A stretch of 48,145 nt of DNA, the filler included, from Leucoraja erinacea (taxonomy: Eukaryota), in assembly GCF_028641065.1 (NCBI RefSeq). It is 2 parts of 2 records of this genome, joined end to end, with 100 filler letters (N's around TTAATTAATTAA, not from the genome) between each part and the next. Parts side by side here need not be neighbours in the genome. Positions count along the whole stretch, not along the records: positions 1 to 22,986 come from NW_026575948.1; 1 more part is not named here. One strand, written 5' to 3'. Shown here piece after piece: positions 2,996-20,403 of this stretch. A program made the translations under genes and the position numbers. Below the pieces are notes generated by a model. It made no database searches and was not told the DNA's origin. It worked only from the letters and a program-made list of their open reading frames with translations. The stretch's first letter is position 1. Every line of letters begins with the position of its first letter.

Positions 2996-3328
2996 GTGTG
3001 ACCGTGACATCTGTGCCGTGACCATTATATATTTCCCCTGTGAAAACACTCACTCGGCAGTAATACCTTCCTGTATCGATCATTTTGAGGTCAGTGATTT
3101 CGATGGATACTTTTAGAATTCCCTTTGAATTATTTGTCAGAACGCGACCATAATAGTCGCCGCTCGTGTTGGAAACGGCACGAGTTTCCACGTCTTTGTA
3201 CCAACTAATGGTCCTAATTAAACTGCTTGTGTCGCCAACAACTGCACAGTTTAGCCGCACAGTCCCGCCTTCAGTAACTGTGATCTGCTTCGGTGATTGT
3301 ATGATCGATTCATCGGATCCAACAGCAC
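2996..3328 (-). pseudogene. Ig V-set VJ-type exon V1 (NKp30/NCR3-like); open frame but splice acceptor mutated
   Basis: Translation AVGSDESIIQSPKQITVTEGGTVRLNC...WYKD...DTGRYYC...GHGTDVTVT has the canonical Cys/Trp/YxC and a J-like GxG. 333 nt, with a phase-1 donor C|GTAAGT (intron 2990-2995). The acceptor reads tttcAT where paralogs have tttcAG (position 3329). Confidence 0.85.
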
Positions 3329-3654
3329 ATGAAACCAGAAAGAATATTATAGTCTCGGCGCTGGCCTTTCGGCCCACCCCGTCAATGCCATCCATTACAC
3401 CTATCTACACAATCCCATTTACTCGCGTTAGGATCATGGCCTTTCTATGTCTCAGCGTTTCAAGTGCTTGGCGAGACGATTCTTAAATGTCGTGAGACAA
3501 CCCGGGCTCGATCCTGACCCCGGGTGCTGTCTGTCTGTGTGGAGTTTGCACGTTCTCCATTATATTGCCTGCGTTTCCCCTGGGCGTTCTTGCTTCCTCT
3601 CTCAACCCAAGGACGCGCGTCCTGACAGGCAATTAACATCCCTAAACAACTCCT

Positions 3655-4078
3655 AGCATCCATCCAGCCAACTGAGACAAAAGCACACTGGATAGCCACC
3701 AAGTGGTCACAGGAGTGGAAGGCAACCTCATCTCCATTACACAGCTCCATCTGTTCACCAGATAAAACCTGTCCAGGGTCTGACCTCCCCAGAGGAGCAT
3801 GGGTGAAGCTCAACAGACTTGGTACTGGAGTTGGGTGTTTCAATGCCAGCATGTGGAGATGGGGGCTCCGCCAGAGCCCAGCCTGTGAATGTGGAGCAGA
3901 ACAACAGGCAGCCAACCATGTCATCTCTGGGTGCCCGCTCTCCCACCCACCAAATGGAGCTGTGTCAGGGCCTGGCAGACATTGACGCCAAGAGACAACA
4001 ACCTGGCTGCTCAACACCCGGCTTGAGATCTAACTATTCCTTTAGTTTATTTATGTTTCATTCGCAAGAAGAAGAAGT
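3655..4078 (+). mobile_element. RTE-type LINE 3' fragment inserted in an old SINE
   Basis: LNRLGTGVGCFNASMWRWG...CECG...ANHVI C-terminal zinc-knuckle-like motif and (gaa)n tail; a partial paralogous copy lies at ~18280-18475. Confidence 0.6.
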
Positions 4079-4239
4079 ACAGCTGTAAATCATCCCTGGT
4101 TTATGGAGGAGTCGGAGTGACTGGAGCGTGAATGTGAATTTAGAGGGAACTGGTTTGCTGTTCGATGGGAAAAAATGGCTTCTTGCCTCGTTCTAGAAAT
4201 GGGGATTTCGCCCACAATGGACATTAATCACTTTGGTTT

Positions 4240-4539
4240 AGTTTAGTTTAGAGATACAGAGCGGATACAGGCCCTTCGGCCCACCGAGTCCGCTGCGATC
4301 AACGATCCCAGCAAAATAATGCTATTCTACACACACTAGGGACAATTTAATTTTTTACCGAGGCCAATTAGCCTACAAACCAGTACGTCTTTGGAGTGTG
4401 GGAGGAAAACGGAGCTCCCGGTGAAACCCCACGCAGGGGGAACGTAAACTCCGTACAGACAGAACCCGTAGTCAGGATCGAACCCGGGGTCCCTGGCGCT
4501 GTAAGGCAGCAACTCTACCGCCGCGCCACCGTGTTGCCC
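4240..4539 (-). mobile_element. HE1-like tRNA-derived V-SINE
   Basis: A box TGGCGCGGCGG, B box GGTTCGATCC, central V-domain and CR1-derived tail. Further copies at ~12800-13091, 31000-31500, 37500-37742, 44925-45065 and 46040-46150. Confidence 0.8.
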
Positions 4540-4976
4540 CTCTCTCCAGCTTTCCTGAACCCACTGTACTTTCCTTACAGTTCCTCCATCTTCCCCGCCA
4601 GGTTATGGTCATATGTTTGTTATTCCGATTTTGTGCTTCAACATTCATGGATGTTACAGCGTCGAAAGCGACCATGAAATCGGCACGGATTATATCAAAT
4701 GATGCACCGATTCTCTCTTCATCCCGTACACTGATGCACAGTCTCTAGCCCAGAGTAGGGGAATCGAGGACCAGAGGACACAGGTTCAAGGTGAAGGGGG
4801 AAAGATTCAGTAGGAATCCGATGGGTATTTTTTTCGCACAGAGGGCGCTCGATTTATGGAACAAGCTGCCAGAGGAGGTAGTTGAGGCTGGGACTATCCC
4901 ATCGTTTAAGAAGCAGTTGGACAGGTACATGGATAGGACAGGTTTGGAGGGATATGGACCAGGCGCTGGCAGTTGG

Positions 4977-5217
4977 GACTAGTGTAGATGGGACATTGTT
5001 GGCCGGTGTGGGCAAGTTGGGCCGAAGGGCCTGTTTCCACACTGTATCACTCTGTGACTAGTGTAGATGGGACATTGTTGGCCGGTGTGGGCAAGTTGGG
5101 CCGAAGGGCCTGTTTCCACACTGTATCACTCTGTGACTAGTGTAGATGGGACATTGTTGGCCGGTGTGGGCAAGTTGGGCCGAAGGGCCTGTTTCCACAC
5201 TGTATCACTCTGTGACT
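4977..5217 (+). repeat. Tandem triplication (~78-bp unit) of a LINE 3' UTR
   Basis: gactagtgtagatgggacattgttgg...tatcactctgt occurs three times. Confidence 0.9.
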
Positions 5218-5627
5218 GATCTTGCACATTGTAATTTAAAAAAGAGAAACATAGAAAAATAGGTGCAGAAGTAGGCCATTCGGCCCTTCCAGCCAGCACC
5301 GCCATTCAATATGATCATCTGAAATCAGTACCCCGTTCCTGCATTCTCCCCGTATCTCTTGATTCCGTTAGCCCTAAGAGCTAAATCTAACTCCCTCTTT
5401 AAAGCATCCACTGCCTTCTGTGGCAGAGAATTCCACAGATTCACAACTCTCTGGGTGAAAAGATGTTTCCTCGTCTCCGTTCTAAATGGCCTCCCCCTTA
5501 TTTTCAAACTGTGTCCCCTGGTTCCTAAATCTGATCTGACAACGTTTCGTTGTTGAGACGTGCGGTGGCCGGTGTTAAGGATGTTTTTGAGAACAGTAAA
5601 GACAAAGTTAAGATAACGCAAACTTAC

Positions 5628-18013: not shown

Positions 18014-18119
18014 TGCCCAATTGAACTGATTGTGTTGCTAACAAATGCACAGTTTAGCGGCACAGTCCCGCCTTCAGTAACTATGATCTGATTCGGTGAT
18101 TGTATGATCGATTCATCAA
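18014..18119 (-). pseudogene. Truncated V exon V4 (A-B strands only)
   Basis: Encodes DESIIQSPNQIIVTEGGTVPLNCAFVSNTISSIG, then joins directly to a CR1 3' fragment; the flanks match those of V1. Confidence 0.85.
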
Positions 18120-18854
18120 CTTGAAAACATATTATAGTCTCGGCGCTGGCCCCGGGTGCTGTCTGTCTATGTGGAGTTTGCACGTTCTCCATTATATTGC
18201 CTGCGTTTCCCCTGGGCGTTCTTGCTTCCTCTCTCAACCCAAGGACGCGCGTCCTGACAGGCAATTAACATCCCTAAACAACTCCTAGCATCCATCCAGC
18301 CAACGGAGACAAAAGCACACTGGATAGCCACCAAGTGGTCACAGGAGTGGAAGGCAACCTGATCTCCATTACACAGCTCCATCTGTTCACCAGATAAAAC
18401 CTGTCCAGGGTCTGACCTCCCCAGAGGAGCATGGGTGAAGCTCAACAGACTTGGTACTGGAGTTGGGCGCTTCAACTTCCTCTCCGCAGACTGAGAGTCT
18501 GGGGAGAGGAAGACTAGAGATATGGAAGGGTACAAAGAGCACGCGAGGTGTGAAAAAGACAGATCAAAGCAGAAGATGCTCAAGATGATGAATGGGTCTC
18601 CACCCGAAACGTCACCCATTCCTTCTCTCCAGAGATGCTGCCTGTCCCGCTGAGTTACTCCAGCTATCTTCGGTCTAAACCAGCATCTGGAGTTCCTCAC
18701 ATTTTCCCATCTCCACCCCTTTTTGCTTCCCTCCGCAGAGACCGTTCCCTCCTCAACTAACTGGTCAACTCATCCCTTCCCACCCAGACCACCCCTTCTC
18801 CAGGTACCTTCCCCAGCAACCGCAGGAGATGCAACACCGGTCCTCACCGGAGAA

Positions 18855-19576
18855 GACCTGGGTGTCATGGTACACCAGTCATTGAAAGTAGGCATGCAGG
18901 TACAGCAGGCAGTGAAGAAAGCGAATGGTATGTTAGCTTTCATAGCAAAAGGATTTGAGTATAGCAGCAGGTAGGTTCTACTGCAGTTGTACAAGGTCTT
19001 GGTGAGACCACACCTGGAGTATTGCGTACAGTTTTGGTCTCCCAATGTGAGGAAATACATTCTTGCCATGGAGGGAGTACAGAGAAGGTTCACCAGACTG
19101 ATTCCTGGGATGTCAGGACTTTCATATGAAGAAAGACTGGATAGACTCGGCTTGCACTCGCTAGAATTTAGAAGATTGAGGGGGGATCTTATAGAAACTT
19201 ACAAAATTCTTAAGGCGTTGGACAGGCTAGATGCAAGAAGATTGTTCCCGATGTTGTGGAAGTCAGAACAAGGGGTCACAGTTTAAGGATAAGGGGGAAA
19301 TCTTTTAGGACCGAGAAGAAGAAAACATTTTTCACACAGAGAGTGGTGAATCTGTGGAATTCTCTGCCACAGAAGGTAGTTGAGGCCAGTTCGTTGGCTA
19401 TATTTAAGAGGGAGTTAGATGTGGCCTTTGTGGCTAAAGGGATCAAGGGGTATGGAGAGAAGGCAGGTACAGGATACTGAGTTGGATGATCAGCCATGAT
19501 CATATTGAATGACGGTGCAGGCTCGAAGGGCCGAATGCCCTACTCCTGCACCTATTTTCTATGTTTCTATGTTTCT
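18855..19576 (+). mobile_element. CR1/HER1-type LINE 3' fragment
   Basis: [13 protein letters not shown]...RVVNLWNSLP and tttctatg tail. Confidence 0.9.
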
Positions 19577-19577
19577 A

Positions 19578-19965
19578 ATACCTCCTCCCTCAACTCTGTC
19601 CAGGGACCCCAACAGTCCTTTTAGGTGAGGCAGATGTTCACTTGCTGCTCCTCCAACCTCATCTACTGTATCCGTTGTTCCAGATGTGAACTCTAACACA
19701 TCGGCGAGACCAAACGCAGACTGGGCGATCGTTTCGCTAAACACCTTGTCTCAGACCGCCTGCACCAACCTGATCTCCCGGTTACTAAACACTTTAATTC
19801 TCCTTCCCATTCCCACACAGACCTTTCTGTCCTCGGTCTCCTGCATTGTCAGAGTGAGGCTAAATGCAAATTGGAGGAGCAGCATCTCATATTTGGTTTG
19901 GGCAGTTTACACCCCAGTGGTATGAATATTGATTTCTCTCACTTCAAGTAATTCCGGCATCCTCT
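19578..19965 (+). mobile_element. Penelope GIY-YIG fragment
   Basis: Degenerate copy of the 41190-41635 endonuclease region. Confidence 0.8.
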
Positions 19966-20049
19966 CCGACACACAAAGGCAAGTGGAGTCGGATTAAGAA
20001 TGTTTTTTTTAAGAACAGTAAAGATAAAGTTAAGGTTCTGCAAACTTAC

Positions 20050-20403
20050 TTGTGACCGTGACATCTGTGCTGTCCGCAAACGTACGTGTGATCGTGGCAT
20101 GTATGCCGTGACCATTATATATTCCCCCTGTGGTAACACTGACTCGGCAGTAATACCTTCCTGTATCGGTCATTTTGAGGTCAGTGATTTCGATGGATTC
20201 TTTTATAATTCCCGGTGAACGATATTGCAGAACGCGGCCATAATAGTCGCCGCTCGTGTTGGAAACGGCACGAGTTTCCACGTCTTTGTACCAATTAAAG
20301 GCCCCAATTAAACTGCTTGTGTAGCCAACAAATGTACAGTTTAGCCGCACAGTCCCGCCTTCAGTAACTGTGATCTGCTTCGATTCAGCGGATCCAACAG
20401 CAC
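20050..20403 (-). CDS. Ig V-set VJ-type exon V5 (NKp30/NCR3-like), open, with a 5-aa A-strand deletion and a duplicated J-like end
   Basis: 354 nt, open, phase 1-1; acceptor at 20404-20406, donor GTAAGT at 20044-20049, alternative donor GTACGT at 20080-20085. Encodes C...WYKD...YYC...GHGIHATITRTFADSTDVTVT. Confidence 0.8.

What the first reader, a model, noticed from the sequence alone, without database searches (positions are those of the whole stretch)
3100..20230. V exons are reciprocal mosaics with a switch point inside the exon
Seen: 5' markers group V1+V3 against V2+V5 (intron agaaAGaat vs agaaATaat on plus, IS-W vs AF-x-W, NNS(K/Q)G vs SPG). 3' markers group V1+V2 against V3+V5 (KVS vs KES; downstream intron taacgcaaac with ggtggccggtgtt vs ttctgcaaac with gtggagtcggatt). 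Inference: crossover or gene conversion near the DE loop shuffles loop combinations.
Basis: partly seen in the sequence, partly recalled or inferred. Interest (0 to 1): 0.7.

Follow-up and report, generated by a model that had tools for sequence, protein, structure and literature searches.

The report
Patchwork NKp30-like receptor exons in skate
A skate-like fish carries a tandem row of NKp30-like immune-receptor exons whose pieces are mixed between copies, most likely by ordinary gene conversion as in other NK-receptor families, but the clearest break lies at the exon's end rather than at a reciprocal switch inside it.

Summary
The named markers exist, and local haplotypes of V1, V2 and V5 recur in other sequencing runs, so local assembly chimerism is unlikely. 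Inside the exon the four clean informative sites alternate A-B-A-B (p=1.0). Neither V1-V2 nor V2-V5 is a close pair, so the exchange is not reciprocal. The strongest break is at the exon's 3' end: V3 and V5 differ at 24/314 exon sites but 0/82 downstream (p=0.007), and V1 and V3 at 1/134 upstream-intron sites but 8/53 downstream (p=0.0002). One run appears to join V2's BC loop to other D-E segments (inferred). The exons are single-exon VJ domains of the NCR3/NKp30 family, with a leader and a Lys-bearing transmembrane exon; three of five are broken. Best reading: germline gene conversion or unequal crossover in a fast-turnover cluster, plus diversifying selection on the ligand face. This is known for other NK-receptor families. 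The scan noted a similar skate array on other DNA (e1-9579305). Interest 0.3.

The parts
2996..3328 (-). V1: VJ-type V exon, open frame, but the splice acceptor reads AT instead of AG (likely unspliceable)
   Evidence: a 117-nt contig of run X2 has exactly V1's difference counts against V3 (4) and V5 (8 + 2 gaps)
2760..2995 (-). V1 3' flank, same type as V2's but 34 mismatches in 211 aligned bases
   Evidence: this flank type is seen as loose ends in X1 and X2
5628..5957 (-). V2: intact V exon with both splice sites; upstream intron replaced about 20 nt before the acceptor by a repeat fragment (junction 5977/5978)
   Evidence: X1 contig 5668-5801 with 1 difference
5978..6107 (.). repeat fragment 100% identical to 19837-19966, part of the V3/V5-type 3' flank
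   Evidence: 130/130
6430..6511 (-). V3 donor intron and flank, identical to V5's (0/82) apart from poly-A length
   Evidence: X2 contig 6393-6520 with 0 differences and 1 gap
6512..6840 (-). V3: V exon with a 4-nt deletion in the BC loop (frameshift)
7539..7568 (-). leader (signal peptide) exon, cut by the gap 7008-7537
   Evidence: tblastn with P0001, 8/10 identical
16294..16466 (-). stalk/transmembrane/short tail exon with a Lys in the membrane segment (activating type); stop at 16311
   Evidence: 75% to the P0001 tail
18016..18151 (-). V4: 5' fragment of a V exon, acceptor deleted, truncated after the BC loop
20050..20403 (-). V5: in-frame V exon with a 15-nt deletion in strand A and a 36-nt tandem duplication of the G strand plus donor (20071-20106)
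   Evidence: X2 contig 20041-20173 with 2 differences and no gap runs across the duplication, with 30 letters on the shorter side
19965..20049 (-). V5 donor intron and flank, V3 type

Best explanation
These are germline, non-rearranging V exons of a tandem NCR3/NKp30-like receptor cluster that have likely exchanged sequence by repeated non-reciprocal gene conversion or unequal crossover, with diversifying selection inferred on the predicted ligand-binding loops. Shown: family, gene parts, uneven non-coding divergence and real local haplotypes. Inferred: a recent tract covering about 135 nt of upstream intron plus the exon was shared among V1, V3 and V5 while V1 kept an older 3' flank, so the main break is at or just inside the exon's 3' end (somewhere between cols 398 and 571); shorter exchanges probably also moved the BC loop onto other D-E segments. 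The effect would be new combinations of ligand-face loops, at the cost of many broken copies.
For: V1-V3: 4/33 differences in the distal upstream intron, 1/134 in the proximal intron, 1/77 synonymous sites, 8/53 in the donor intron (Fisher p=0.006 and 0.0002). V3-V5: 24/314 in the exon, 0/82 downstream (p=0.007). The 3' half rejects both other quartet trees (AU p=0.02), while the 5' half prefers V1+V3. In run X1 one 387-nt contig (depth 25.7) with V2's exact BC loop and a normal upstream intron is the only contig over the 5' half, while V1-, V2- and V3/V5-type 3' flanks and several D-E types are present at depths of about 3-13; one X1 contig carries a D-E haplotype absent from the window. In X2 the V5-type 3' half occurs at depth 42-45 without V5's 5' markers. 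Loops: pN 0.23 vs pS 0.04 (V1-V5, p=0.02), 0.22 vs 0.04 (V3-V5, p=0.04). Variable positions align with NKp30's B7-H6 contacts I50-V53, L80-S82, E111, L113.
Against: Only four sequences and nine informative columns. A single tree for cols 173-617 is not rejected against the V1+V3 tree (AU p=0.19), and the 5' half does not reject V1+V2 (p=0.32). Homoplasy alone gives the conflict in 3-9% of simulations. The best triplet break is p=0.083 after correction. Residues 63, 67 and 72 vary recurrently across distant relatives. pN>pS is not significant for V1-V3 (p=0.11) or V1-V2 (p=0.69), and the loops were chosen after seeing the alignment. No laid contig spans a whole exon; the X1 inference rests on depth and on the absence of other 5' contigs, which a filter can remove.
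Confidence: 0.7

Rival explanations
1. No exchange inside the exon: the copies follow one tree, conflicts at cols 312, 385, 397 and 412 are recurrent mutations at selected loop codons, and only the 3' flank was rearranged.
For: Exon sites alternate A-B-A-B; the same residues recur in distant relatives; simulation p of 0.03-0.09 is marginal.
Against: The intronic marker col 179 is shared by V1+V3, whereas all laid contigs of X1, X2 and X7 carry the other base. X1 carries V2's whole multi-site BC loop apparently on other D-E types.
Confidence: 0.15
2. One reading: one reciprocal crossover near the DE loop made V1/V5 (or V2/V3) as complementary mosaics.
For: All four combinations at cols 397/412 exist, 15 nt apart; residues 67-72 do span the D-E turn in the model.
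Against: Col 385 contradicts the position; V1-V2 and V2-V5 are not close where they should be (synonymous V2-V5 10/75); V3-V5 identity starts only after col 561.
Confidence: 0.08
3. The mosaics are chimeric joins of a gapped short-read assembly.
For: Six N gaps in the window; identical runs of 40-74 nt between the BC and D-E regions could be mis-joined; long-range phase was not confirmed by any single record.
Against: Cols 385-412 lie within 28 nt; the V1 and V2 haplotypes there, the V5 3' half with its duplication and all three flank types recur in other runs.
Confidence: 0.05
4. Broken V exons act as donors for somatic, AID-type gene conversion of the expressed V, as in chicken immunoglobulin.
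For: One leader precedes three V exons, two of them broken; 10 RNA reads over V5 range from under 90% to over 99% alike.
Against: The mosaics are in genomic DNA of several runs; RNA variety is explained by further paralogues; no somatic data.
Confidence: 0.02

Closest known systems
Cartilaginous-fish NCR3 (NKp30) multigene family
   Same: Single-exon VJ domain, leader and charged transmembrane exon; 45-50% identical relatives are named NCR3-like by NCBI; tandem NCR3 copies are listed on the white shark and sawfish MHC chromosomes (PMC10751288 supplement rows).
   Different: Very young copies (1-3 synonymous differences in about 75 sites among V1, V3, V5), three of five broken, one leader ahead of three V exons. 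Lys rather than the Arg recalled for human NKp30. I could not read Kinlein 2021 or Flajnik 2012 to see whether conversion is described there.
Patchy homogenisation of NK-receptor ligand-binding exons (KLRC/NKG2, Ly49, PIR; also Siglec-11/16, CEACAM, CD300A/C)
   Same: Tracts starting a short way upstream of an exon and ending near its 3' end, flanks left diverged (PMC3210942 abstract and section 7; others from search listing only).
   Different: There the partners are activating/inhibitory pairs; here only an activating-type transmembrane exon is in the window, and several partners are pseudo-exons.
Chicken immunoglobulin pseudo-V gene conversion (recalled, no call)
   Same: Broken V copies beside an intact one.
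   Different: That process is somatic and acts on a rearranged V; here there is no RSS and the mosaics are germline.

Membership tests
NCR3/NKp30 family | Single exon encoding V plus J-like G strand, no RSS | tested here: met
   329-354-nt exons ending in a G-x-G-T-like strand and a GT donor; no heptamer/nonamer match around V1, V2, V3, V5
NCR3/NKp30 family | Closest solved relative is NKp30 by sequence and fold | tested here: met
   Profile A2: NKp30 is the best single-domain hit (E 4e-23, 86 bits; two four-domain diabodies rank above it by summed score). V2 alone did not list NKp30 in its top 60. Foldseek ranks 1, 2 and 4 are NKp30, with a small margin over VNAR and nanobody chains. A2 includes proteins already named NCR3-like.
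NCR3/NKp30 family | No C'/C'' strands; helix before strand D (PMC3135353) | tested here: met
   Model, mean pLDDT 92: strand 37-43, short helix 55-57, strand 61-66. No helix alpha2 is predicted.
NCR3/NKp30 family | Short stalk and positively charged transmembrane residue | tested here: met
   Exon 16294-16466 with Lys; splicing of a V to it not shown
NCR3/NKp30 family | MHC linkage | tested here: inconclusive
   Neighbour is RGS3-like; sawfish chr34 holds RGS3-like and NCR3 about 2.3 Mb apart; equal longest-contig lengths suggest shared contigs in three other species. No MHC gene in the window.
NCR3/NKp30 family | Binds B7-H6 and signals through an ITAM adaptor | not testable with these tools
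   No skate ligand sequence at hand; no complex job was run
Reciprocal crossover pair | Both products near-identical to swapped parents on each side of one break | tested here: not met
   V2-V5 20/210 in the 5' half, V1-V2 13/178 in the 3' half
Ectopic gene conversion tract | Bounded stretch of high identity, including non-coding sites, between more diverged flanks | tested here: met
   V1-V3: 4/33, then 1/134 intron and 1/77 synonymous, then 8/53; direction and donor not determined

The most novel reading that the evidence does not exclude
Skate NKp30-like genes use a stack of V exons behind one leader as a cassette library: broken copies donate loop blocks to the spliceable copy, in the germline fast enough to differ between individuals and possibly somatically, while a variable-number 36-nt repeat of the G strand and donor tunes stalk length. 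This would be an antibody-like diversification route in a non-rearranging receptor thought to resemble the antigen-receptor ancestor.
Probability: 0.05. Interest if true: 0.75.

Novelty: new member of a known kind. Interest (0 to 1): 0.3.

Why it matters
It adds a cartilaginous-fish NCR3 cluster to the list of NK-receptor families that mix ligand-binding exons between copies, and shows that different runs carry different loop combinations. That bears modestly on how a non-rearranging VJ receptor keeps pace with a changing ligand. It is not a new mechanism. Two searches found no paper on gene conversion in shark or skate NCR3, but the two main papers on the family were not held.

Tried and rejected
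No whole genome is held, so further copies could not be counted. The first lay was swamped by repeats between V2 and V3; only its V-exon rows were used. No RNA holder was listed. RNA run X24 gave 10 reads on V5, all within the exon, and no splice joints, so donor choice and V-to-leader or V-to-TM splicing are untested. A near-length protein search found nothing. The protein atlas gave no result. GENECONV, RDP and GARD were not available; I used permutation, quartet AU tests, single-tree simulation and triplet max-chi tests instead. Rejected: rearranging Ig/TCR V segments (joined G strand, no RSS); a signal peptide read through the upstream intron (a separate leader exon exists); a DE-loop switch as the main break. 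The V-domain tree places the copies with P0001 without strong support and has no human NKp30 row. Kinlein 2021, Flajnik 2012, Ohta and Flajnik 2015 and Joyce 2011 were not held and were not read.
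Full report
What is there. The window is repeat-rich DNA with six N gaps. On the minus strand lie four full V-set exons and one fragment: V5 (20403-20050), V4 fragment (18151-18016), V3 (6840-6512), V2 (5957-5628) and V1 (3328-2996). A transmembrane exon with a Lys lies at 16466-16294 and a leader exon, cut by a gap, at 7568-7539. The order is V5, V4, TM, leader, V3, V2, V1. V1's acceptor reads AT, V3 has a 4-nt deletion and V4 is a fragment. V2 is intact but its upstream intron is replaced about 20 nt before the acceptor. V5 is in frame with a 15-nt deletion and a 36-nt duplication of the G strand and donor.

Family. The closest proteins are from a skate (67%) and from rays and sharks (45-51%); three of ten looked up are named NCR3-like by NCBI and a fourth NCR3 by UniRef. 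A profile of 17 sequences finds human NKp30 as best single-domain structure (E 4e-23). The V2 model (pLDDT 92) matches NKp30 at Foldseek ranks 1, 2 and 4, with a small margin, and lacks C'/C'' strands as NKp30 does (PMC3135353 passages). No RSS was found. The neighbour gene is RGS3-like, which shares sawfish chr34 with NCR3 (PMC10751288 supplement rows).

The observation. Call V1+V3|V2+V5 'A' and V1+V2|V3+V5 'B'. The clean sites run 179 A, 312 A, 385 B, 397 A, 412 B, 572-574 B, 586 B, then non-homologous flanks B. Col 385 was missed. Within the exon the order is ABAB (p=0.67-1.0). Over all sites p is 0.048 by columns and 0.07-0.11 by events. Simulation on one tree gives three or more conflicting sites in 6-9% of replicates, or 3-5% with the third split empty. 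The site pattern alone is therefore marginal.

Where the signal is. It comes from two close pairs, not four. V1 and V3 are close in the 5' part (7/224), and V3 and V5 are identical downstream of the exon (0/53). V2-V5 (20/210) and V1-V2 (7/53) are as distant as any pair. By synonymous sites V1, V3 and V5 are near-identical (1-3 of about 75) and V2 is apart (8-10 of about 76). V1-V3 divergence is 4/33 in the distal intron, 1/134 in the proximal intron and 8/53 in the donor intron (p=0.006 and 0.0002). V3-V5 is 24/314 in the exon and 0/82 downstream (p=0.007). Of 12 triplet tests the best break is cols 561-572 (p=0.007; 0.083 corrected), and no exon-only test survives correction. The break cannot be placed more closely than cols 398-571; only col 412 favours the DE loop. 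One non-reciprocal event explains four haplotypes.

Is it an assembly artefact? I laid 4 of the 24 listed runs on two stretches. An X1 contig matches V2 over 5668-5801 with 1 difference. A 117-nt X2 contig has 4 differences from V3 and 8 plus 2 gaps from V5, exactly V1's counts and gap places. A 133-nt X2 contig runs across V5's duplication with 2 differences and no gap, with 30 letters on the shorter side, one short of the tool's bridging rule. All three 3' flank types appear. No record spans a whole exon, so long-range phase is unproven. Whether any of these runs is the window's source is unknown; the best holds 0.51 of the words.

Further combinations. In X1 a single 387-nt contig (depth 25.7) covers the 5' half. 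It has V2's BC loop letter for letter, reconstructed from the difference table, with a normal upstream intron. Downstream, X1 has V2-type and V3-like D-E segments and three flank types at depths of about 3-13, and one contig carries a D-E haplotype absent from the window. I infer that V2's BC loop sits on several 3' halves there; this rests on depth and on no other 5' contig being listed, and a filter can drop records. In X2 the V5-type 3' half is present at depth 42-45 while V5's 5' markers are absent from all laid contigs; some RNA reads of X24 (same organism code) do carry them. At col 179 every laid contig of X1, X2 and X7 has the V2/V5 base, so V1+V3 share a derived intron base.

Selection. 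Among V1, V3 and V5, loop pN exceeds pS (0.23 vs 0.04, p=0.02; 0.22 vs 0.04, p=0.04; V1-V3 p=0.11; V1-V2 p=0.69). The loops were delimited after seeing the alignment. By the profile alignment the variable residues fall on NKp30's B7-H6 contacts I50-V53, L80-S82, E111 and L113 (PMC3135353 section 9); the Ile/Phe marker aligns with V53. Recurrent change at such sites is expected, and residues 63, 67 and 72 vary across relatives.

Mechanism. Most likely (0.7) germline ectopic conversion or unequal crossover repeatedly copies the exon with its proximal intron, and sometimes shorter loop blocks, between tandem copies, while selection favours new ligand-face residues and many copies decay. The family, the parts, the uneven divergence and the local haplotypes are shown. 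Tract limits, direction, loop-block transfer and function are inferred.

Comparison and verdict. Exon-bounded patchy homogenisation is described for rodent NKG2 and other NK receptors (PMC3210942 abstract and section 7). Multi-copy NCR3 in elasmobranchs is known. Searches found no report of conversion in this family, but Kinlein 2021 and Flajnik 2012 could not be read.

Noticed in passing
window 20071-20106: The 36-nt G-strand/donor duplication leaves two GT donors in frame, 12 codons apart. Loose ends of X2 contigs at 20040 and 20100 repeat the junction, hinting at other or additional tandem units. The skate protein P0001 also repeats its G strand. It could vary stalk length.
   Followed up: partly
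window 2996-7568: One leader exon precedes three V exons (frameshifted V3, intact V2, acceptor-dead V1); no TM exon for them lies in the window, so V2 could be the spliced exon of a gene continuing beyond position 1.
   Followed up: partly
window 18016-18151: The V4 fragment shares a BC-loop base with V3 and the next bases with V5, and its upstream 330 nt are 98% identical to V1's.
   Followed up: partly
window 26721-27302 and 23371-23460 (-): Exons of an RGS3-like gene, 97% and 93% identical to a skate protein.
   Followed up: yes
window 8300-11430: Decayed retrotransposon-like coding stretch (gag/protease-like by eye) between the leader and the TM exon.
   Followed up: no
window 22987-23086: Two 44-N runs around a 12-nt all-frame-stop linker, an assembly gap marker.
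   Followed up: no
P0002, P0011, P0023, P0037, P0089: Relatives with uncharged TM segments and tyrosine motifs in the tail suggest activating/inhibitory pairs in this family.
   Followed up: no
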